Part shown: positions 419 to 15,331 of the stretch, one piece after another
Layout of the letters: every line of letters begins with the position of its first letter
Numbering within the stretch: the stretch's first letter is position 1
NCBI GenBank assembly: GCA_003707115.1
Contig: PPNB01000031.1
Coordinates: 62,001-82,077, forward strand
Direction: 5' to 3'
DNA from: Tortispora ganteri
Lineage: Eukaryota
DNA: 20,077 nt
The notes under the pieces: model-generated
What the model saw: only the letters and a program-made list of their open reading frames with translations
Databases searched by the model: none
Told to the model about the DNA's origin: nothing
Made by a program: the position numbers and the translations under genes

Positions 419-1570
419 TTAGTCAGAGCACTTGAGTACGACTCGGCCCACAATTTTACCCTGTTGCATTTCGCGGAACACAGTATCGAGCTCGTTAAGC
501 GGGCGGATCTCAATCGGCACCTTAACAAGTCCCCTGGCAAAGAAGTCAATGGCCTCGTCAGTATCAGCACGGTTGCCAACATATGAACCTTTAATACTGA
601 TCGATCTCACGACCTGATCAAAAACGTCAGCAGATATCTTTGCATCTGGAGGAAGTCCAACGACAACAACAGTACCCATAGGACGAACATATTTTACAGA
701 GGCATTCAGAGGTCCACTGGAAGCAGAAAGGTTAAGTACAGCGTGTGATCCTCCTTCGGTGTAATCGAGAACGTCTTGAACAATATCCTTAGACTTAGTG
801 AAGTCAACAAAATGTTCACCGCCGAGCTTCTTGACAAGAGCAGCTTTTTCATCACCTCCATCGATTCCAATGGGTCTGAGACCCATGGCCTTGGCGTATT
901 GAATAGCCAAAGAACCAAGCCCTCCTCCGGCACCAACAACGGTGACAAACTCACCAGGGCGAGCACCAGATGTCTTCAAAGCCTTGTATACGGTAATACC
1001 GGCGCATAGAATAGGAGCGATCTCAGCTAGATCGCAAGATTTGGGAATAGGAGCAGCGTGAACAGCTTTGGCAATGGCGTACTGCTGAAAAGAACCGTCA
1101 ACCGTATAACCAGACAATATAGCATCTGCACAGTTTGATTCCCCTCCATGTTTGCAATACTCGCAGCTAAGGCACGAGCCGTTGAGCCATTTGATACCAG
1201 CATAATCCCCAAGTTGGAAGTTGGTGACCAAATCGCCAGCAGCAACAACAACCCCTGCACCTTCGTGACCTCCGACCAAAGGAAGTTTGGTATCAAGAGG
1301 CCAATCACCATGCCAAGCGTGCAAATCAGTGTGGCATACACCTGAGTACTTGACATTTATCAAAATCTCATCAGGACCAGGAGTAGGAACTGGAATATCA
1401 CGATATTCGAGAGGGCCGTTGGGCTTATCGAAGACCATTGCCTTCTGCATCTTTGGAATGTTTGGCAACTCATGAATTTGACGTATCGCTTGTGATGCAA
1501 CCATGGGTGAAGCTTTGAGTGTAGGGAAAACTGGAGCTTTAAAAACCCGCAAAACTTTTGTTTTAAGCAT
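419..1570 (-). CDS. Zn-dependent alcohol dehydrogenase (fungal Adh1/2/3 family), predicted mitochondrial isoform, 383 aa
   Basis: Motifs [14 protein letters not shown], structural-Zn CxxCxxCx7C ([15 protein letters not shown]) and GAGGGLG. Start placed at ATG 1570 (ACAATG context); the N-terminal ~32 aa ([13 protein letters not shown]...IRQIH) are K/R/S-rich with no acidic residues. An upstream in-frame ATG exists at 1612. Stop TAA at 419-421. Confidence 0.93.
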
Positions 1571-2087
1571 TGTTGAGAGAAAGAAATGCCAAGTATCAAA
1601 GTTAGTGGACATTCCGATCTCGGCTTAAAGTTATTCCTTATTTGGGGTTGTTATAACAACAATAGATGGCTTGGAAGTATAAAGATATTACGCGAGACTA
1701 TTTTTGGGTGGGTAATATTTACATTTTAGTGACATTTTGACAGCGAGCGCATATTTTCATTACTACCATTTATCGCGATTGTGGAATCAGTTACTTGTTC
1801 TATGCCAAGCCAATGATCAGGTCATGTTGGGAGCACAATACAGCATGGGTTCCACCTGTGACAGTTACCAATAAATGTCCATTGTGGTGCACGGTGTTGT
1901 ATGCGCCATTGAAACCTTTAAGTTTATACAATTTCTAAACCTAAGGTTGAGGTCACATTGGAGCTCTGTACTAGGCTAATGACAGTATCATTGGTGTGCG
2001 TTATACTACTGTTGGCGTAAAGCTCTACATTATGCAGATGTACTGGTTTCCAATGATATACAAGTTTGAACCTGACGGTGGAAGTAC

Positions 2088-3140
2088 TTAATCGGAACAT
2101 TTTAGAACGACTCTTCCGGCAATCTTACCCTGTTCCATATCTTCATACACAGCGGGCAGATCTTTGAGTTCGCGAATCTGGATAGGCACATGGACTAGTC
2201 CGCGAGCAAAGAAATCAATGGCCTCGTCAGTGTCAGCACGGTTTCCGACATATGAACCTTTAATGCTCACGGATCGGATAACGTGGGTGAAAACATCAGA
2301 AGATATTTGCGCATCTGGAGGAAGTCCAACGACAACAACAGTACCCATTGGACGAACATATTTTACAGAGGCATTCAGAGGTCCACTGGAAGCCGAAAGG
2401 TTAAGTACAGCATGTGATCCTCCTTCGGTGTAATCCAAAATAGCCTGGACGACATCCTTAGTCTTGGTGAAGTCAACAAAATGTTCACCGCCGAGCTTCT
2501 TGACAAGAGCAGCTTTTGCGTCACCTCCGTCAATACCAATGGGTCTGAGACCCATGGCCTTGGCGTATTGAATAGCCAAAGAACCAAGCCCTCCTCCGGC
2601 ACCAACAACGGTGACAAACTCACCAGGGCGAGCACCAGATGTCTTCAAAGCCTTGTATACGGTAATACCGGCGCACAGAATAGGAGCGATCTCAGCTAGA
2701 TCGCAAGATTTTGGAATAGGAGCAGCGTGAATAGCTTTGGCAATGGCGTACTGCTGAAAAGAACCATCAACCGTATAACCAGAAAGCAAAGCGCTACCGC
2801 AGTTAGGCTCAGCGCCACGCTTGCAATACTCGCAGCTAAGGCACGAGCCGTTGAGCCATTTGATACCAGCATAATCACCAATCTGGAAGTTAGTGACCAA
2901 CTCGCCAGCAGCAACAACAACTCCTGCACCTTCGTGACCTCCGACCAAAGGAAGTTTGGTATCAAGAGGCCAATCACCATGCCAAGCGTGCAAATCAGTG
3001 TGGCATACACCTGAGTACTTGACATTTATCAAAATCTCATCAGGACCGGGAGTAGGAACAGGAATTTCACGGTATTCGAGAGGGCCGTTGGGCTTATCGA
3101 AGACCATGGCCTTTTGAGTCTTGGGAATTGATGGGGCCAT
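2088..3140 (-). CDS. ADH1: Zn-dependent alcohol dehydrogenase, cytosolic Adh1/Adh2-like, 350 aa
   Basis: Full-length yeast ADH (SIPKTQKA... [15 protein letters not shown]... [13 protein letters not shown]). No presequence. Tandem paralog of 419-1570. Confidence 0.93.
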
Positions 3141-6418: not shown

Positions 6419-6627
6419 ACGTCATACTGCCCAAATTAGACACATATAAGTAGCCATAAAATGCTGAATTACATTCTTTCCTTTACAAGTATTACGCGGC
6501 TCCCTAACCCTGATACTTAATTTAGTGAACCTCCAACTTTTGTCAATGCGTGACCCGATCCGTTTCTGCTTGACACGCCAAACTTTTTGCAACGCGATAT
6601 TTAATTAGTGTGATCGTCCTTTGCAAA

Positions 6628-7527
6628 ATGGATAGCAAAACATTATGGAAAATATTCTGTAGTATACTGCTTGGTGTGACCTCTGTTGAGCTGATTGCCT
6701 TCATACTGCTGGCATATGTCCGCAAAGCCGGCAGGTTAGTGACGATCTTTGTACTTTTCGCATTTGCCACCGGTATTGGTGCTTTGTGCTGCGCAATAGT
6801 GTATTCTGCTACAGAAACAAATTCCTATGCGCTATTATGGGCCTACGTTGGCTTGACTAGCGAAACGATAGTATTCGTATACATAGCGCTCTTCCAGTTC
6901 CTAATAGTATTTCAGCTGAGAGTGCACGGACAAAGCTGGACCGCTTTGTGGCCTGGGTCGCATATTGGCATCTCTTTGTTCGTGAATGACTATCACCTTT
7001 CATCGAAAGTTTCGTGGATTTTCAACTGGGCGATCGCTGGTGTAAATGTCATCATGGCTACCGGCGCTGCCTTTTTGCCTGACAATTCTAATACACTTAT
7101 AGAAGTGATCCAGCATAAGCAGCTTCTAGGCAGGTCTATGCTGCTTGCCTCTTATGCAGCTATGATATGTCTAGCGCTCATAAATTTTCTCATGTTTTTG
7201 TCAGAATGGAGCAATGTTGTTCGAATAGGCGTCGACAGTCAGTTTATGAATGTACTGCTAATCTGTGAAGGAGTCATGATTTTACAGTGCATTACTTCCA
7301 TTATTATGCTGGTAGTACCGACGTTGGACATCGCCTCTATCAGTATCCTGACGGCACCCATGACCACCGGAATAGCCGTGTGGCAATTTATAGTCATCTG
7401 GGGCTGCATACTGGTAGAATACGGACAGTGTATCTACCTTCTGTGGATCTGGAATAATTATGAGGAGTATGAAGACAACAAAATACCTGCAGATCCAACG
7501 ACACTTACTGAGGATACGAGCCTATGA
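6628..7527 (+). CDS. Uncharacterised integral membrane protein with ~7 TM helices (RTA1/DUF7702-like topology), 299 aa
   Basis: Open frame from ATG 6628 (AAAATGG context). Seven hydrophobic 20-25 aa segments and an acidic C-terminal tail. No family-diagnostic motif recognised with certainty. Confidence 0.8.
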   Translation: MDSKTLWKIFCSILLGVTSVELIAFILLAYVRKAGRLVTIFVLFAFATGIGALCCAIVYSATETNSYALLWAYVGLTSETIVFVYIALFQFLIVFQLRVHGQSWTALWPGSHIGISLFVNDYHLSSKVSWIFNWAIAGVNVIMATGAAFLPDNSNTLIEVIQHKQLLGRSMLLASYAAMICLALINFLMFLSEWSNVVRIGVDSQFMNVLLICEGVMILQCITSIIMLVVPTLDIASISILTAPMTTGIAVWQFIVIWGCILVEYGQCIYLLWIWNNYEEYEDNKIPADPTTLTEDTSL

Positions 7528-7589
7528 CAAGTTGTAACATGGTTCTTTCCATTCAATGCATTTTTCCCCCATTAAAGTGAGGCCCACAA

Positions 7590-8598
7590 TTAACGAGCTT
7601 TATCCATCTCTAGCCTTTCAAAAGTCTTCCGGGCAGCTTTAATATTTAATGACACAATATCTTCATCACCGGCATTTATATGTGATTCCTTTCTCTGAAC
7701 TTCCAACCGTGGCAGTATAACCATAATGAACATGTTGGAGGTCAAATTTTCTATAATGATAGTACATCCAGGACCGCGTAGTTGTAGCGATTGAAACTGC
7801 GACCTCATTTTCGAGCAGCTTTGTTTATAGGTCTTAATAATGTTCGATATTTTCTCGAACCTTTTAGGGTCCATTTCTGCAGTCTTGTATGACGCGTGTG
7901 ATATGACAAGAAACGTAGTTTTCTCAAACAATATGGCTTCCTGCGCCTCAGATATTTCAGCGAAATGATGGAGATGTGACTCAAATGCATTCATGTTGGG
8001 AATAAGCTCACATACTATGCTTGACCAGGCTTTATAGAGCGATTCGTCCCATATTGAAGTGGCGTATCCTTGTATAGGAAACCCGTATACTTTTGAGGTT
8101 TCACGCAACGCCTGCATCATGCTAGAGTAGACTTCTTCACGCTTACCTGGCTGAACGAGATCAATCTTATGTATTAAAACAAATATCTTTGCATTCGGAG
8201 AGTAGTCACTTAACTGACGAAGACAGAGTGCGAAGGTCTCGACATCTTTAGATATCTCTTCACTCTCTACGTCAAATACATGGATAAGTACTTCAACCAT
8301 TCTGAAGATATGGTCTTTCTGTGTTGTAAAATATGTCTCCATGAATGCATCTTGACCGGCACAATCCCACAAATTGAGAGTCATATTGCCTAGAAACCGC
8401 AAATTCGAATGCTCTACATCCATAGTGGCACCAAGTCGACGAGTATCGTAGGCGGAATAGTTCGAGAAGATTATACTTCTCATGGACGATTTTCCTGATC
8501 CGCTACGTCCCTTTACTGTTAGATTTTGAAATTCTTATTTATAAATCATATATACATACCATTAATAGTAGCTTCCTACGTGAACTTGTAGCTGTCAT
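7590..8598 (-). CDS. GTR1: Rag-family GTPase Gtr1 (RagA/B; EGO/TORC1); exons 8598-8560 and 8510-7590, intron 8559-8511
   Basis: Spliced N-terminus MTATSSRRKLLLM|GRSGSGKSSMRSIIFSNY restores the P-loop. WDCAGQ and HKID motifs present. The 49-nt intron reads GTATGT...CTAAC...AAG. Confidence 0.95.
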
Positions 8599-8714
8599 TG
8601 TCTGTTGATTGTCGTTGTCGTAGTGTAAGTAGTAAGACACCCCTGCCCGTTGCCCTAACACAAACCTTTCTTTTACCAGTCATTTTAAGTCTACCCTCTA
8701 AAAGGGCCCGCTAT

Positions 8715-8818
8715 GTAAGTATGATTACTATGATGATAATATTTTCTAGCTGATATTCTGTGGAGCGGTCTATTTCAGACTACAACGGTATCTGAGTTTC
8801 ATACTAACGCCGCCGCAG
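8715..8818 (+). other. Spliceosomal intron in the SEN2 5' UTR (snoRNA host)
   Basis: GTAAGT at 8715-8720, perfect TACTAAC at 8802-8808, CAG at 8816-8818 immediately before the SEN2 ATG at 8819. Confidence 0.85.
8727..8797 (+). ncRNA. SNR79: Box C/D snoRNA, snR79 homolog (guide for 18S rRNA Cm1007, S. cerevisiae numbering)
   Basis: Box C ATGATGA at 8730-8736, D' CTGA at 8750-8753, C'-like TGTGGA at 8759-8764, box D CTGA at 8792-8795. The guide AGACTACAACGGTAT before box D is complementary to the conserved 18S segment AUACCGUYGUAGUCU, and the D+5 rule points to the second C of AUACC. In S. cerevisiae snR79 also lies next to SEN2 (recalled, not checked). Confidence 0.88.
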
Positions 8819-9619
8819 ATGTCTCGTTTGCCTCGCGATGAAAAAATCGTGACCGTGACAATTCATCCACATGGAGCCGATGTCTACAACGAAAAGATGT
8901 GGTTTTGGAAAAATGGTTATTTCGGCAAGGGTACCCTCAGTAGAAGCGAACCTACATGGTTTCGTCGTCAGACTTCCACTACTCCACTTGCTGAAGACAT
9001 AACAGTCCTTCGCCGTCAACAAAGACTTCAAGCCAAAGGCGCCGCCGAACTCGATAGCCTGGCCGTGTCTTCACAGCAGACAAAATCAATAAGTATGGCC
9101 GTAACCACCATTCCAAAAGAATTAAACGATACCGAAAACATCGAAGACATTGAATCGTTGAGGCTTAGTCCGGATGAGGTGCTGTTTCTGTCGTACGGCG
9201 TGGGTTGCATCAATCCATTACTGGCTGGCCGACCGGCTACGCTGGACGATTTACTGGTCACTTTTAATATGCAACTAGGATCAGAACTTTTGAGCAAATA
9301 CATCGCCTATCATCATTTCCGATCTCTTGGCTGGTGTGCACGCGACGGCGTCAAGTTTGGCGCCGATTATGTACTGTACCGCAAGGGTCCACCACACTCA
9401 CACGCCGAATTTGCAGTGATAGTACAGCCAACGCTGAACTGGCGTTCGTTGTCTGCACGTAATCGTGTAATAACGAATGTACGCAAGACGATGATTTTAG
9501 CGTATGTTGAGCATCCCACAACAATTAAACCGTATACGGACTTGAGTCTGTTGCTGGAGCAGTTCTCTATCAGGTTACAAACCGTACAACGCTGGTCGCC
9601 GTCACGTAACCGAGAATAA
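8819..9619 (+). CDS. SEN2: tRNA-splicing endonuclease catalytic subunit Sen2, 266 aa
   Basis: WKNGYFGKGTLSRSEPTW, E.L.L...E..FL, YHHFRSLGW, GVKFGADYVLYRKGPPHSHAEF, RK and RWSPSRNR motifs; catalytic Y/H/K residues present. Confidence 0.93.
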   Translation: MSRLPRDEKIVTVTIHPHGADVYNEKMWFWKNGYFGKGTLSRSEPTWFRRQTSTTPLAEDITVLRRQQRLQAKGAAELDSLAVSSQQTKSISMAVTTIPKELNDTENIEDIESLRLSPDEVLFLSYGVGCINPLLAGRPATLDDLLVTFNMQLGSELLSKYIAYHHFRSLGWCARDGVKFGADYVLYRKGPPHSHAEFAVIVQPTLNWRSLSARNRVITNVRKTMILAYVEHPTTIKPYTDLSLLLEQFSIRLQTVQRWSPSRNRE

Positions 9620-9854
9620 CGCGAAATAAACTAACGATTTACGAACTACAATAACTAATTAAAATTAACAAATATTAATAATTAAAGAAATGAAAGCAAT
9701 ATACTTCCACTCTTATATACTTAGACATTGATGAGCTTAAAACACATTATTCATTAAGAGAGATATTTAAAAAAAAACAATAACAAGTAAGAGTAAATAA
9801 ATACACATAAAACATTCAAGTAATTATGCAAATTATGATTTCATGAGTTCATGA

Positions 9855-11411
9855 TTAATTGCTGACAGGAGCAGCAGTCTCGACATCTTCTTCGTGAGTA
9901 GCATGTTCAGACGACTTCTCGTTGGAATCCAAAGGAAGAACAGCCTCCTCGGTGACTTCAATATGAGCACTTGCAGTCTTCCAGGCGGGAATCTTCTTTT
10001 GCCACATAACCTCAATTTCCTCAAGGGATTTACTTTTGGTCTCGGGGAACATGAAGAAAACATGGAAAAACATAGCAATGCAGAAGACACCAAAGATAAT
10101 ATATGTTCTCCATTGAATGTTAGTGAAAGCTGGTGGGACAAAGAAAGCCAAAGCGAAGTTGAAGATCCAGTTAAATGAAGCGCAGAAACCGTTGGCGACA
10201 GCACGCTGGTGGAGTGGGAAGATCTCAGAGACGTATAGCCAGATTCCAGGACCCCAAGTAGGTGCAAAGGAGGCAGTGAAAAGGTAGCTGCAGGCAATGA
10301 TAGCGCGAGAGGCAGGAGCAGATGTAACGATCCATCTCAAATTAGTATTTCCATCTACTGAATCGACGTAATGACCATAGTTAGCCATAATACCTGCAGT
10401 TGCGAACATGAAAGTCATCATAAGTACAGCACCAAGAAGGAGCATGGGACGACGGCCCCAAGAATCGATAAAGATCAATGCAGGAATAGTCATGACAACG
10501 TTAATAACATATTGAATAGATGAAGAGACAAGAACAGTATTGCCTTGATAGCCAGCCATTTGGAAAAGGTTGACAACATAGTACATAGCGACATTCATAC
10601 CTGTTAGCTGCTGCCAGATCTGTGCAGAGACACCAACAAAGGTACGTGTGCGAGAACCTTTAGCGAAAAGGTCAATAATTGAGACGTTCTTAGATTGACG
10701 GTTGATTTCCACAGAGATACGTACTTCCTCAAGTTCAGCCTTGGTACGTTCATCATCGAGATTGCCGTTAGATTCAATTTTCGATACGATGAAAGCAGCC
10801 TCTTCCCAGCGGTCTTTAGAAGCGAGCCAACGAGGAGATTCGGGGACGAGGAATAAACTAGCCATAAGAACAATACCGGGGAGGATCATAATACCCCAGG
10901 CAGTACGGAATGAAGCTGGTCCATCAATATGTGTGCAGCCATAAGAAATGTAGAACATGATCATAATACCCCAGGTGACAGCCCATTGAAAGAGTGAGCC
11001 GAGTCTACCACGAATACGCTTAGGGGCGATCTCAGAGATATATACGGGGACTTGCGAAGAAGCTAAACCAATACCAATACCTGCAATAAAACGTCCAATG
11101 ATGAGCTGTGCGAGGTTTTGGGATGAGCTCTGGATAGCAGCACCGACGACCCAGAAGAAACCGGCAGTCTGAATAGCAAGTTTTCGACCTTTCCAATCAG
11201 AGAGGGTACCAGCAATAAGAGCACCAACAAAGGAGCCACCGGACATTGAGGCAGTAATTCCACCTTGAGTAACAGAGTCAGGGTAACCGAAGTAAGAACG
11301 ATAAGCATCTTCGGAGACGAAGGCAGAGACGGACGAGATGTCGAAACCGAACATCATGCCGCCCACCGTCGCTATGAGGGCAGCAAAGTATGGATTATAT
11401 ACCTTGTACAT
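9855..11411 (-). CDS. HGT1: High-affinity glucose/hexose transporter, MFS sugar porter family (HGT1-like), 518 aa
   Basis: GGMMFGFDISS, GGITASMSGGSFVG, DWKGRK, YISEIAP, PESPRWL, QIWQQLTGMN, GRR and PETK motifs; 12 TM pattern. Start placed at ATG 11411 because the track start is non-ATG. Confidence 0.9.
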   Translation of the reverse strand: MYKVYNPYFAALIATVGGMMFGFDISSVSAFVSEDAYRSYFGYPDSVTQGGITASMSGGSFVGALIAGTLSDWKGRKLAIQTAGFFWVVGAAIQSSSQNLAQLIIGRFIAGIGIGLASSQVPVYISEIAPKRIRGRLGSLFQWAVTWGIMIMFYISYGCTHIDGPASFRTAWGIMILPGIVLMASLFLVPESPRWLASKDRWEEAAFIVSKIESNGNLDDERTKAELEEVRISVEINRQSKNVSIIDLFAKGSRTRTFVGVSAQIWQQLTGMNVAMYYVVNLFQMAGYQGNTVLVSSSIQYVINVVMTIPALIFIDSWGRRPMLLLGAVLMMTFMFATAGIMANYGHYVDSVDGNTNLRWIVTSAPASRAIIACSYLFTASFAPTWGPGIWLYVSEIFPLHQRAVANGFCASFNWIFNFALAFFVPPAFTNIQWRTYIIFGVFCIAMFFHVFFMFPETKSKSLEEIEVMWQKKIPAWKTASAHIEVTEEAVLPLDSNEKSSEHATHEEDVETAAPVSN

Positions 11412-11473
11412 TATGCAAACTGGAAGATGTATGTCTTTTGCGAACAAACGAACAAATCAAATATTAGTATCAG

Positions 11474-12445
11474 AAAAAAGCGGGGAAATTGAATCAGAAG
11501 CTGTTATATTTATACTTAATGGAACACGCGCCTGTCTTATACGTATGCGGCGAAATTTTGAAAGTAGTACCCCAGAATTTTCCGATGTTAGAGTTAAAGT
11601 TAGAGTTTCTAAGCTCTCAGGAGCCTGAGAGAGTTTCCGCAAGCAAACTGAAAATCGCAAGAACCCGAAAGGTAAAAGAAGCCAATGACATCGAAAAGTG
11701 GGGGGATTAATGTGGCAATAATCGGCAGAAGAAATAATGAAGTCACACGGATCAACTAAAACGGTAATACTTAGAGTAACATGCCGATTGTGCTGAATGT
11801 ACTTGAAAAGAGGGAATTCTAGTAATATGTTGATGTGGGGTATAATGAGTTGCAGGGTTTAATTTAAACGAAATTAAACTAGTCTAAAGAATAGTGACAT
11901 AGCTCAACATACACAATATGTAATCAGTTTGTCAGCCAAGCCCATCGCCAAAATTAAAAAAAGGGCGCAGTAAGAGTAAACCGCACCTTAAACACTTTTT
12001 CGGTAGGACCCGCCCTTCCCCGGAAAAATACGCCTTTAAGCGAAAACTGAAACAGTAAGCATAAATAACGGAAAAAGTTCAAATTTTAAAGAAAGTTTCC
12101 TTAATAAAGTTACTAATACATCCCTTTTTTACCTCATTTTGAGGTCGCACAAATCTAATAAGCTCATATGAACTGTTTTTAACTTAAACCATTACTACCT
12201 TTTAGACTCTAGGAAAGCCGTACAAAGCTTATGGACCCTAATGCAAATTCAACTCATTACTTCCTTCGCATTACTGGTGGTATGCTTTTAGTATTGGTAG
12301 TAATCGGCAAATTGTTCTCCCGTTGCGCCTTTTAATTCTCAGCCGCTCGATCCCTCAAATCCCTATATCTTCCTGAATAGATCGATCCGATATAATCACT
12401 CTATACCACTGCGATTCACCAATATTTCGCATTTCCCCGCTTTTT
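11474..12445. promoter_or_regulatory. Glucose-regulation motif cluster upstream of HGT1 (Mig1/CreA-type and Rgt1-type sites, TATA)
   Basis: AT-flanked SYGGGG sites at 11474-11485, 11570-11580 (minus), 11694-11704 and 12435-12445 (minus). CGGANNA sites at 11578-11584 (minus), 11748, 12021 and 12069. TATAAA on the minus strand at 11514-11509. Confidence 0.5.
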
Positions 12446-13494: not shown

Positions 13495-13566
13495 GGGCCG
13501 GGCCGGGAATTGAACCCGGGACCACTCGCACCCAAAGCGAGTATCATACGACTAGACCACACGGCC
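13495..13566 (-). tRNA. tRNA-Pro(UGG), intronless, 72 nt
   Basis: GGCCGTGTGGTCTAGTCGTATGATACTCGCTTTGGGTGCGAGTGGTCCCGGGTTCAATTCCCGGCCCGGCCC. Anticodon stem CTCGC/GCGAG, loop TT-TGG-GT, T-arm CCGGG-TTCAATT-CCCGG. Upstream TATATA at about -30. Confidence 0.93.
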
Positions 13567-14373: not shown

Positions 14374-14415
14374 TAGGGTTTGGTTGTTATGTCAACTTAC
14401 GCCCTAACCAGTCAC
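14374..14415 (+). promoter_or_regulatory. RPS6 promoter: inverted TAGGGT...GCCCTAA (Tbf1/telobox-type) plus CAGTCAC (Homol-D-like)
   Basis: TAGGGT at 14374-14379, GCCCTAAC at 14401-14408 (21-nt spacer), CAGTCAC at 14409-14415, about 60-100 nt upstream of the ATG. Confidence 0.6.
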
Positions 14416-14471: not shown

Positions 14472-15331
14472 ATGAAGGTATGTATAATTTTTGGAGACAA
14501 AGCGCCCACGTATATGAGCGATATGTCGTGAAGTTACAGATATTTAAGAATTTCGTTAATCAAAATCATCTGAATAAAAATGAACGTAATACTAACGCCA
14601 ACTAGTTGAACATCGCATATCCCGCCAATGGCACACAAAAATTGATTGATATTGATGATGAGCAACGCGTACGCGTGTTTTACGAAAAGCGAATGGGACA
14701 GGAAGTTGCCGGAGATTCTATTGGAGATGAATTTAAAGGTTACGTTTTCAAAATCACTGGAGGTAACGATAAGCAAGGTTTTCCTATGAAGCAAGGTGTC
14801 ATGCATCCCACCCGTGTTCGTCTTTTACTGGCAAAGGGACACTCATGCTATCGTCCGCGTCGTACAGGTGAGCGAAAGCGCAAATCTGTTCGTGGATGCA
14901 TTGTTGGACCCGATCTCGCTGTTTTGTCCTTGGTTGTAGTCAAACAGGGTGACAACGAAATTGAAGGTTTAACCGATGCTTCAGTCCCCCGCCGTCTTGG
15001 ACCTAAGCGTGCCAACAAGATCCGTAAAATGTTTAATCTCGACAAGGATGATGATGTTCGCAAGTTTGTTGTTCGTCGTGAGGTCGTAAAGGGCGAAAAG
15101 AAATATACAAAGGCTCCTAAGATCCAACGTCTTATTACTCCTCAACGTCTCCAACGCAAGCGTCATGAGAGAGCCCTTAGAGAACGTCGTGCTGAAGCTG
15201 CTCGCAATGCCGCTGCTAATTACGCCGAGCTCCTTGCTAAGCGTATTGGTGAAGAACGTGCCAAGAAGGCTGAGATCCGCAAACGTCGTGCTTCTTCTCT
15301 CCGTGCTTCCCACTCAGTTGCTGCCAACTAA
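14472..15331 (+). CDS. RPS6: 40S ribosomal protein eS6; exons 14472-14477 and 14606-15331, intron 14478-14605
   Basis: [35 protein letters not shown] and the RRASSLR phospho-motif. Intron GTATGT...TACTAAC (14590-14596)...TAG. Confidence 0.97.

What the first reader, a model, noticed from the sequence alone, without database searches (positions are those of the whole stretch)
8713..8821. snR79-like C/D snoRNA nested in a 5'-UTR intron of SEN2, with the 3' splice site abutting the start codon
Seen: GTAAGT...[box C, D', guide, box D]...TACTAAC...CAG|ATG. The 104-nt intron is barely larger than the snoRNA, and box D lies only 6 nt from the branch motif. The unspliced RNA carries a minimal ATG-TAA uORF across the 5' splice site (8713-8718) and an intronic uORF (ATG 8721 to TGA 8751-8753); splicing removes both. 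Established: C/D guides methylate the base paired at D+5, and yeast snoRNAs were ancestrally intronic. Inference: one transcript couples an rRNA methylation guide to a tRNA-splicing subunit. snoRNP assembly may compete with branch-point recognition and gate Sen2 translation.
Basis: partly seen in the sequence, partly recalled or inferred. Interest (0 to 1): 0.75.

Follow-up and report, generated by a model that had tools for sequence, protein, structure and literature searches.

The report
snR79 snoRNA inside SEN2 leader intron
A small guide RNA for ribosomal RNA methylation (snR79) sits inside an unusually tiny intron just ahead of the tRNA-splicing gene SEN2 in a Tortispora-like yeast; this layout is real but already described in Candida yeasts, so it is a compact example of a known arrangement.

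Summary
Every motif is at the stated place: GTAAGT 8715-8720, box C 8730-8736, D' 8750-8753, guide 8777-8791, box D 8792-8795, TACTAAC 8802-8808, CAG|ATG 8816-8821.

Rfam's snR79 model is the only snoRNA match with E below 0.01 in the window (38.1 bits, E 0.006, under the gathering score of 55). The guide plus box D equals its consensus at 19 of 19 positions. The ORF is a Sen2 homologue.

The layout is not new. Donovan et al. 2016 place snR79 in a 5'-UTR intron of orf19.2735, syntenic in four Candida-clade species. In my metagenome scan, 29 of 31 snR79-like loci with enough flank carry Sen2 downstream on the same strand.

What differs is compaction. The intron is 104 nt against 180-299, and box D lies 8 nt from CTAAC against 31-84.

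No RNA data or genome could be obtained, so splicing, expression and methylation are inferred. The competition or gating idea is sterically plausible but untested. The uORFs are by-products of box C, D' and the 5' splice site.

Verdict: a new member of a known kind, of modest interest.

The parts
8652..8683 (+). Candidate promoter module: GCCCTAAC (8652-8659) plus CAGTCAT (8677-8683)
   Evidence: The same composite, GCCCTAAC directly followed by CAGTCAC, lies upstream of the RPS6 start at 14401-14415. There are 2 occurrences in the window, and 2 of 2000 mononucleotide shuffles give at least one. Singly the motifs are not enriched. Homol-D = CAGTCACA comes from PMC4138321. The Tbf1 consensus is recalled. 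Function is inferred.
8684..8714 (+). Putative non-coding 5' exon. The start is unknown; the exon end at 8714 is set by the splice site.
   Evidence: No ATG lies on the + strand between 8607 and 8712. The GTR1 start codon on the opposite strand is at 8598, which leaves 116 nt. The transcription start is not measured.
8715..8818 (+). 104-nt 5'-UTR intron: 5' splice site GTAAGT 8715-8720, branch box TACTAAC 8802-8808 (branch A 8807), 3' splice site CAG 8816-8818
   Evidence: Read and scanned. Two homology-backed introns in the same window use the same signal types. RPS6: GTATGT..TACTAAC..TAG, 128 nt. GTR1: 49 nt. No RNA evidence.
8726..8797 (+). snR79-type box C/D snoRNA: box C 8730-8736, D' 8750-8753, C'-like TGTGGAGC 8759-8766, guide 8777-8791, box D 8792-8795
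   Evidence: Rfam RF01184 scores 38.1 bits, E 8.9e-5 on 301 nt and 0.006 on the window. Aligned with three loci that pass the Rfam gathering score: L050, L011 and L035.
8787..8787 (+). Guide nucleotide D+5, which pairs with the C predicted to be 2'-O-methylated
   Evidence: Counted from box D. In locus L016 the 19-nt guide plus box D string is the exact antisense of a eukaryotic SSU rRNA gene (Rfam 1818 bits). D+5 falls on a C about 1010 nt from that gene's 5' end (my arithmetic). The D+5 rule is established knowledge.
8718..8724 (+). 5' arm AGTATGA of a 7-bp external stem; overlaps 5' splice site positions +4 to +6
   Evidence: Pairs with 8799-8805. Kept in the MFE and centroid of the isolated intron. 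Absent from the MFE of the 191-nt pre-mRNA context. A stem of 7 bp or more arose in 94 of 20000 full shuffles and in 396 of 20000 shuffles with the splice signals fixed.
8799..8805 (+). 3' arm TCATACT of the external stem; overlaps the first four bases of TACTAAC
   Evidence: As for the 5' arm.
8819..9619 (+). SEN2 coding sequence, 266 aa; the first ATG sits immediately after the 3' splice site
   Evidence: Pfam tRNA_int_endo, E 1e-21. Named homologues are Sen2. The closest is a partial Tortispora caseinolytica model, 91% identical over aa 118-265. An in-frame stop lies at 8747-8749 with no in-frame ATG before 8819 (read).

Best explanation
The window comes from a budding yeast close to Tortispora caseinolytica. 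One RNA polymerase II transcript starts in the 116-nt gap shared with the divergent GTR1 gene. It carries a short non-coding first exon, a 104-nt intron and the SEN2 coding exon. Splicing joins 8714 to 8819, which removes four upstream AUGs and makes the SEN2 AUG the first in the mRNA. The excised intron is debranched and trimmed to a box C/D snoRNA of about 70-75 nt, the orthologue of snR79. As a snoRNP this guides 2'-O-methylation of the small-subunit rRNA cytidine paired with guide position D+5 (the Cm1007 site of S. cerevisiae, numbering recalled). This is the ancestral fungal snR79-in-SEN2-leader arrangement, squeezed to near the minimum in a compact genome. [quoted passage not shown] A folded C/D core therefore probably cannot coexist with an assembled spliceosome, so the snoRNP core most likely forms on the excised intron (splice first, assemble later). 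Shown: the motifs, the family match, the Sen2 identity, the conserved linkage and the geometry. Inferred: transcription start, splicing, processing, methylation and the order of events.
For: The Rfam snR79 match has E 8.9e-5 locally and 0.006 window-wide, and the guide plus box D equals the consensus at 19 of 19 positions. The ORF is Sen2. Box D is only 23 nt from the ATG, so a separate SEN2 promoter downstream of the snoRNA has no room. Of 109 metagenome loci that hold the 19-nt string, I class 50 as snoRNA-type, 58 as antisense SSU rDNA and 1 as a repeat (and by eye). Of the 31 snoRNA-type loci with at least 600 nt downstream, 29 have a Sen2 homologue downstream on the same strand. Two pairs among them are duplicates. 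Nineteen of those 29 show both a GTRNGT 5' site and a CTAAC/CTGAC/CTAAT + AG before the Sen2 ATG. L050, L011 and L035 pass the Rfam snR79 gathering score. [quoted passage not shown] The N. crassa snR79 homologue CD18 is intronic (PMC2780460). Two homology-backed introns in the same window use the same signals and short branch-to-AG tails. T. caseinolytica has a 9.2-Mb genome that is comparatively intron-rich for a budding yeast (PMC5499181).
Against: There is no RNA evidence of any kind: no RNA run was listed and no genome is held. The Rfam score is below the curated gathering score (38.1 against 55). This species' own 18S could not be read, so guide pairing is tested only against SSU genes of other organisms. 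There is no canonical terminal stem next to boxes C and D. The 7-bp offset stem is not in the MFE of the longer pre-mRNA context, and the intron's folding energy is ordinary (z 0.05). The spacing is far outside the comparators: box D to branch motif is 8 nt against 31-84, and 5' site to box C is 9 nt against 21-125. Efficient splicing of this intron is therefore not self-evident. A second GTAAGT at 8625 leaves the 5' exon structure open. My splice-site calls in the metagenome loci are motif heuristics, and 10 of 29 loci failed one of the two rules.
Confidence: 0.8

Rival explanations
1. Mutually exclusive processing that gates Sen2. On each primary transcript, one outcome is that the spliceosome wins, giving SEN2 mRNA plus an intron that later yields the snoRNA. 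The other is that the C/D core, or the 5' splice site/branch-box stem, forms first and blocks U1/U2. This leaves an unspliced RNA that carries four upstream AUGs and is poorly translated or decayed. Sen2 output would then track the availability of snoRNP core proteins.
For: Linkers between the splice signals and boxes C and D total 15-17 nt. In 19 comparator loci the total is 73-174 nt. Modelling of the S. cerevisiae A complex required at least 42 nt of linker beside an intron stem, and no pairing within 10 nt of the 5' site or 20 nt of the branch point (PMC12350175 passages). The 7-bp stem covers 5' site positions +4 to +6 and four bases of TACTAAC. Mammalian C/D snoRNAs do best about 50 nt upstream of the branch point (PMC8162545). 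Human precedents exist for snoRNA structures that control host splicing: SNORD2 sequesters a branch point, and NOP56 has SNORD86 (PMC11028025).
Against: Nothing here measures splicing or Sen2 level. The upstream AUGs are all explained by obligatory motif letters. The stem is weak, is partly given by the splice consensus (396 of 20000 shuffles with signals fixed) and is absent from the context fold. Compaction in a small genome explains the geometry without any regulation. The A-complex limits come from another species.
Confidence: 0.2
2. A different exon structure. Transcription starts upstream of 8625 and the GTAAGT at 8625-8630 is used. That would give either a separate 55-nt leader intron (8625-8679, branch CTAAC 8655-8659) or a 194-nt intron 8625-8818 that places the snoRNA 99 nt from the 5' site.
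For: A complete GTAAGT..CTAAC..CAG set lies at 8625-8679. A 49-nt intron exists in the neighbouring GTR1 gene. A 99-nt gap from the 5' site to box C would fall within the comparator range of 21-125.
Against: The first exon would have to start within 26 nt of, or inside, the GTR1 coding exon on the other strand. The CTAAC is part of a GCCCTAAC + CAGTCAY composite that recurs upstream of RPS6 and looks like a promoter module, which would put the start downstream of 8684. No RNA data.
Confidence: 0.1
3. No splicing. The snoRNA is cut or trimmed out of an unspliced SEN2 leader, or is made from its own start just upstream of box C. The splice-like motifs are relics.
For: Splicing-independent release of intronic snoRNAs is mentioned for yeast (PMC5033589 passage citing work on U18). 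One yeast-like locus, L011, has snR79 directly upstream of Sen2 with neither splice signal by my rules, so de-intronised forms exist.
Against: All three splice signals are perfect consensus and correctly ordered. Without splicing, SEN2 mRNA would either keep four upstream AUGs or lose its cap. Only 23 nt separate box D from the ATG, against 185 nt in L011.
Confidence: 0.07
4. Chance resemblance: no functional snoRNA.
For: The Rfam score is below gathering.
Against: E is 0.006 window-wide. The guide plus box D is identical to the consensus at 19 of 19 positions. The conserved position before Sen2 holds in 29 of 31 loci.
Confidence: 0.02

Closest known systems
snR79 in the 5'-UTR intron of orf19.2735 in Candida albicans, C. 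parapsilosis, C. orthopsilosis and Lodderomyces elongisporus (Donovan et al. 2016, PMC5033589)
   Same: The same snoRNA family sits in a 5'-UTR intron of a protein-coding gene, reported as syntenic in four species with RNA-seq shown for C. parapsilosis. Yeast-like loci L035 and L050 show snR79 (70 and 85.5 bits) with splice signals and Sen2 downstream.
   Different: That orf19.2735 is SEN2 rests on my recall. The text I saw does not name the gene, and a search for the identifier found no paper. In L035 and L050 the 3' splice site is 150-193 nt before the ATG and box D is 31-84 nt from the branch motif. Here these distances are 0 and 8 nt.
S. cerevisiae SNR79, an independently transcribed gene (Rfam RF01184)
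   Same: The guide plus box D is identical to the model consensus. Box C and the C'-like motif align. snR79 has unusual but protein-bound C'/D' motifs and an inactive D' guide (PMC3116282).
   Different: It is not intronic. Its position next to SEN2 on chromosome XII is recalled and not tested. L011 shows such a de-intronised but still Sen2-linked form. The window's RNA is shorter: 66 nt from box C to box D against 74-106.
Neurospora crassa CD18 and the Pezizomycotina-like metagenome loci
   Same: It is an intronic snR79 homologue guiding 18S Cm1004. Most of my loci have the snoRNA in a leader intron before Sen2.
   Different: Introns there are 180-299 nt, with about 50-60 nt between box D and the branch motif.
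Human SNORD2/EIF4A2 and SNORD86/NOP56 cis-regulation
   Same: An intronic C/D snoRNA, or its pairing with the intron, decides the splicing outcome of the host gene. SNORD2 does so by hiding the branch point.
   Different: Those cases act through alternative splicing and NMD in multi-intron genes and are shown by experiment. Here the idea is only a steric inference.

Membership tests
Box C/D snoRNA | Box C (RUGAUGA) near the 5' end and box D (CUGA) near the 3' end | tested here: met
   ATGATGA 8730-8736 and CTGA 8792-8795, aligned to boxes C and D of RF01184.
Box C/D snoRNA | Terminal stem bringing boxes C and D together | tested here: inconclusive
   There is no canonical stem directly next to the boxes. 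A 7-bp offset stem (8718-8724 with 8799-8805) is present in the isolated intron fold and absent from the context fold. Shuffles gave 94 of 20000 and 396 of 20000.
Box C/D snoRNA | Guide of 10 nt or more, complementary to rRNA and ending next to box D | tested here: met
   The 15-nt guide, plus box D, is an exact antisense of SSU rRNA genes in other organisms. I class 58 of 109 hits as antisense SSU rDNA. L016 is confirmed as SSU by Rfam at 1818 bits. This species' own 18S was not available.
Box C/D snoRNA | Stable RNA bound by core proteins; methylation of the target | not testable with these tools
   No RNA run was listed and no genome is held.
snR79 (Rfam RF01184) | Score at or above the curated gathering score (55 bits) | tested here: not met
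   38.1 bits. The E-value is still 0.006 for the whole window. Pezizomycotina-like homologues L018, L002, L047 and also L012 likewise fail the cut-off, so the model is narrow.
snR79 (Rfam RF01184) | Box D guide for the 18S Cm1007 site | tested here: met
   19 of 19 identity to the consensus guide plus box D. D+5 pairs with a C at about nt 1010 of the L016 SSU gene. The Cm1007 assignment is recalled; Cm1004 in N. crassa is.
snR79 (Rfam RF01184) | Position upstream of SEN2 on the same strand | tested here: met
   The window, and 29 of 31 snoRNA-type loci with enough flank. The exceptions are L005 and L014.
Budding-yeast spliceosomal intron | GTAWGT 5' site, TACTAAC branch box, YAG shortly after | tested here: met
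   The same types occur in the homology-backed RPS6 and GTR1 introns of this window.
Budding-yeast spliceosomal intron | Spliced junction observed in RNA | not testable with these tools
   No RNA holder was listed.
Sen2 (tRNA-splicing endonuclease catalytic subunit) | C-terminal catalytic domain PF01974 and best matches named Sen2 | tested here: met
   E 1e-21 at residues 158-236. Sen2-named homologues follow. The N-terminal domain PF02778 was not detected. Only 28 residues precede the conserved N-terminal block, about 45-85 fewer than in comparators.

The most novel reading that the evidence does not exclude
In this compact-genome yeast, the snR79 intron may have shrunk until a folded C/D core, or the 7-bp pairing of the 5' splice site with the branch box, cannot coexist with the spliceosome. 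SEN2 expression would then be set by a kinetic race between snoRNP assembly and splicing on every transcript. The unit also appears to carry an RP-gene-like promoter module. Together these would tie tRNA-splicing capacity to the state of ribosome biogenesis.
Probability: 0.15. Interest if true: 0.55.

Novelty: new member of a known kind. Interest (0 to 1): 0.3.

Why it matters
The finding adds an early-branching budding yeast (Tortispora-like) to the species in which snR79 lies in the SEN2 leader intron. With the metagenome loci, it shows that this snoRNA-host pairing is old and widespread in fungi.

The closest named relative's Sen2 gene model is only a partial C-terminal fragment. The full structure read here (short exon, snoRNA intron, ATG at the junction) would therefore correct annotation in this group.

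The extreme spacing (9 and 6 nt) makes this a natural test case for how close a C/D snoRNA can sit to splice signals. It could show whether the snoRNP must then assemble after splicing. This is a question studied in yeast and mammals with engineered constructs.

If the competition reading were true, it would be a simple fungal example of a snoRNA controlling its host gene in cis.

Tried and rejected
- RNA evidence: the look-up of sequencing runs on 6500-12000 listed no RNA holder.
- Whole genome: none is held. This species' 18S, other snoRNA introns and a second snR79 copy could not be examined.
- Papers not held: Mitrovich et al. 2010 and Vincenti et al. 2007. I know them only from titles and citing sentences and from recall.
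- Literature searches: 'snR79' + 'SEN2' found 0 papers. 'orf19.2735' found 0. 'Tortispora' + 'intron' + 'snoRNA' found 1 paper, with nothing on this locus. 'The fungal snoRNAome' has no occurrence of snR79, SEN2 or 'host gene' in its main text.
- Earlier notes of this scan: nothing for this place, sequence or words.
- N-terminal extension of Sen2 from the upstream exon, rejected: the frame is open from 8592, but there is no ATG before 8713.
- The uORFs as designed elements, rejected: they are made of box C, the D' box and the 5' splice-site consensus.
- Single promoter motifs: RCCCTAA and CAGTCAY are not enriched in the window, at 6 against 3.55 expected and 7 against 5.0 expected. Only their composite stands out.
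- Overall intron folding energy as evidence of structure, rejected: z is 0.05.
- A loose branch-motif rule gave false positives and was replaced by a stricter one.
Full report
**What is in the sequence**

- ATG 8713-8715 runs into TAA 8716-8718.
- GTAAGT lies at 8715-8720.
- Box C ATGATGA lies at 8730-8736 and a CTGA (D') at 8750-8753.
- The 15-nt guide AGACTACAACGGTAT lies at 8777-8791 and box D CTGA at 8792-8795.
- TACTAAC lies at 8802-8808, six bases after box D.
- CAG at 8816-8818 is followed directly by ATG at 8819.

The intron 8715-8818 is 104 nt. On the + strand, between 8607 and 8821, ATGs occur only at 8713, 8721, 8730, 8733 and 8819. The frame of the ORF has a stop at 8747-8749, so 8819 is the first possible start.

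**Is it a snoRNA, and which one**

At Rfam gathering thresholds the window yields only a tRNA. With E-value thresholds, the snR79 model RF01184 matches 8726-8797 at 38.1 bits. E is 8.9e-5 on 301 nt and 0.006 on the whole window against all 4227 families. There it is the only snoRNA match with E below 0.01; a weaker sR14 match has E 0.12.

The score is below the curated 55 bits. However, the guide plus box D equals the model consensus at 19 of 19 positions. Box C and a C'-like TGTGGAGC also align.

The model is narrow. In one search I scanned seven snR79-like loci and one rDNA locus. Three yeast-like loci pass it (L050 85.5, L011 83.9 and L035 70 bits). L012 and the Pezizomycotina-like L018, L002 and L047 do not.

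For S. cerevisiae snR79, passages of PMC3116282 describe unusual but protein-bound C'/D' motifs and an inactive D' guide. That fits a single working guide here.

**The target**

I could not read this organism's 18S, because no genome is held. The 19-nt guide plus box D string was used to scan metagenome contigs.

Of the 109 loci returned, I class 58 as antisense small-subunit rDNA, 50 as snoRNA-type and 1 as a repeat. The script gave 54 rDNA, 46 snoRNA and 9 others. I re-sorted those nine by eye.

L016 was confirmed as a eukaryotic SSU gene (1818 bits). In it, guide position D+5 (window 8787) lies opposite a C about 1010 nt from the 5' end. That is the region of Cm1007 in S. cerevisiae (number recalled) and Cm1004 in N. 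crassa.

Whether this species has U or C opposite guide base 8784 is unknown.

**The host gene and organism**

ORF 8819-9619 (266 aa) has the tRNA-intron endonuclease catalytic domain (E 1e-21), and its named homologues are Sen2. The closest is a partial 148-aa model from Tortispora caseinolytica, 91% identical over residues 118-265. All other homologues are at most 39% identical.

The window therefore comes from a close relative of that yeast. T. caseinolytica has a 9.2-Mb genome described as comparatively rich in introns (PMC5499181 passages). Sen2 here has only about 28 residues before the conserved N-terminal block, some 45-85 fewer than in comparators.

**Is the intron credible**

No RNA run was listed, so the junction is inferred. 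Four points support it.
- All three signals are perfect yeast consensus in the right order.
- Only 23 nt separate box D from the ATG, so SEN2 cannot have its own promoter downstream of the snoRNA.
- Unspliced RNA would carry four upstream AUGs.
- Two introns in the same window, backed by protein homology, use the same grammar.

The two comparator introns are these. RPS6 has ATGAAG|GTATGT .. TACTAAC .. TAG, 128 nt, with exon 2 reading the S6e N-terminus. The GTR1 homologue on the minus strand has a 49-nt intron between MTATSSRRKLLLM and GRSGSGKSSM.

**Comparison with other fungi**

Of the 50 snoRNA-type loci, 31 have at least 600 nt downstream. In 29 of those 31, a Sen2 homologue lies downstream on the same strand (tblastn E below 1e-3). 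L032/L070 and L055/L073 are duplicate pairs.

The two exceptions, L005 and L014, are near-identical. They have a small lysine-rich ORF downstream instead.

I used simple motif rules: GTRNGT within 150 nt upstream, then CTAAC, CTGAC or CTAAT followed by AG before the Sen2 ATG. By these rules, 19 of the 29 loci show a complete leader intron. L011 shows neither signal and looks de-intronised.

| Measure | 19 comparator loci | Window |
|---|---|---|
| Intron length | 180-299 nt, median 227 | 104 nt |
| 5' site to box C | 21-125 nt, median 53 | 9 nt |
| Box D to branch motif | 31-84 nt, median 54 | 8 nt |
| 3' site to ATG | 3-193 nt, median 39 | 0 nt |
| Box C to box D span (29 loci) | 74-106 nt | 66 nt |

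The layout is therefore ancestral and widespread, and this copy is its most compact form seen here.

**What is already published**

Donovan et al. [quoted passage not shown] Figure 2B shows RNA-seq coverage. Their supplement lists '5' UTR intron, orf19.2735, Syntenic'.

That orf19.2735 is SEN2 is my recall. Searches for 'snR79' + 'SEN2' and for 'orf19.2735' found no paper in the held library.

The N. crassa homologue CD18 is listed as intronic. The view that yeast snoRNAs were ancestrally intronic and later de-intronised is attributed to Mitrovich et al. 2010 by others. I could not read that paper.

**Mechanism**

The best-supported reading is the ordinary one. A single transcript is spliced to give SEN2 mRNA, and the excised intron is debranched and trimmed to the snoRNA.

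The unusual point is geometry. The linkers between the splice signals and boxes C and D total 15-17 nt. In the 19 comparators they total 73-174 nt.

Modelling of the S. cerevisiae A complex required at least 42 nt of linker around an intron stem. It also allowed no pairing within 10 nt of the 5' site or 20 nt of the branch point (PMC12350175 passages). About 50 nt upstream of the branch point is optimal for mammalian C/D snoRNAs (PMC8162545).

From this I infer that the folded C/D core and the spliceosome cannot occupy this intron together. Either splicing comes first, or the two compete.

**The stem**

A 7-bp stem pairs AGUAUGA (8718-8724) with UCAUACU (8799-8805). It overlaps the 5' site and the branch box. 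It is kept in the MFE and centroid of the isolated intron.

Stems this long arose in 94 of 20000 full shuffles and in 396 of 20000 shuffles with the splice signals held fixed. Against it, the stem is absent from the fold of a 191-nt pre-mRNA context, and the intron's energy is ordinary (z 0.05).

Human precedents exist for snoRNA structures that steer host splicing, so competition is plausible. Nothing here tests it.

The upstream AUGs are not independent evidence. Two lie in box C. The 8721 ORF ends in the D' box. ATG-TAA is exon-end AT plus the GTAAGT consensus.

I put the gating reading at about 0.15-0.2.

**Open structural points**

Only 116 nt (8599-8714) separate the GTR1 start codon from the SEN2 5' splice site.

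A second GTAAGT at 8625, with CTAAC 8655-8659 and CAG 8677-8679, could form a 55-nt intron or serve as an alternative 5' site. However, that CTAAC is part of GCCCTAAC, which is followed by CAGTCAT. The composite GCCCTAAC-CAGTCAC also sits upstream of RPS6. There are 2 occurrences in the window, and 2 of 2000 shuffles give at least one.

CAGTCACA is the Homol-D box of fission-yeast RP and snoRNA promoters. TBF1 sites serve both gene classes in Candida (PMC4138321 passages). This suggests an RP-type promoter and a first exon of 30 nt or less. It is a lead only.

**Verdict**

The feature is real and correctly read. It is a compact new member of a published arrangement. The regulatory inference remains untested. 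Interest 0.3.

Noticed in passing
window 7590-8598, minus strand: The Gtr1/RagA homologue has a 13-codon first exon (8598-8560), a 49-nt intron (8559-8511: GTATGT..CTAAC..AAG, skipping the AG directly after the branch box) and its main exon from 8510. It is divergent from SEN2, with only 116 nt between its ATG and the SEN2 5' splice site.
   Followed up: partly
window 14473-15331, plus strand: The RPS6 gene has a 128-nt intron right after ATGAAG (14478-14605: GTATGT..TACTAACGCC..TAG). It has the same branch-box context and short tail as the SEN2 intron.
   Followed up: partly
window 8652-8683 and 14401-14415, plus strand: The composite GCCCTAAC + CAGTCAY occurs upstream of both RPS6 and the snR79/SEN2 unit. 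At least one arises in 2 of 2000 shuffles. It is possibly a Tbf1-like plus Homol-D-like promoter module shared by a ribosomal protein gene and a snoRNA host.
   Followed up: partly
window 8625-8679, plus strand: A complete set of mini-intron signals (GTAAGT..CTAAC..CAG, 55 nt) lies upstream of the snoRNA intron. It could be a second leader intron, an alternative 5' splice site, or chance overlap with the promoter motif.
   Followed up: no
L005 and L014 (metagenome loci): An snR79-like snoRNA with the same guide is not followed by Sen2. A small lysine-rich ORF lies downstream of an apparent CTAAT..TAG intron end. This suggests a host switch in one lineage.
   Followed up: partly
L011 (metagenome locus): snR79 (83.9 bits) lies 185 nt upstream of a Sen2 start, with no 5' splice site or branch motif by my rules. 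It looks like a de-intronised but still syntenic form.
   Followed up: partly
L018 (metagenome locus), about 2070-2085: The leader intron ends CTAACAG only 3 nt before the Sen2 ATG, so a 3' splice site almost touching the start codon is not unique to the window.
   Followed up: no
window 419-1612 and 2088-3140, minus strand: Two tandem zinc-type alcohol dehydrogenase paralogues lie here. Elsewhere in the window are a sugar transporter (9855-11411, minus), a prenyltransferase alpha subunit, a PRPP synthetase and a tRNA at 13495-13566 (minus).
   Followed up: no
P0001 (closest named homologue): The Tortispora caseinolytica Sen2 gene model is a partial 148-aa C-terminal fragment. The N-terminal half and the leader intron appear to be unannotated there.
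   Followed up: no
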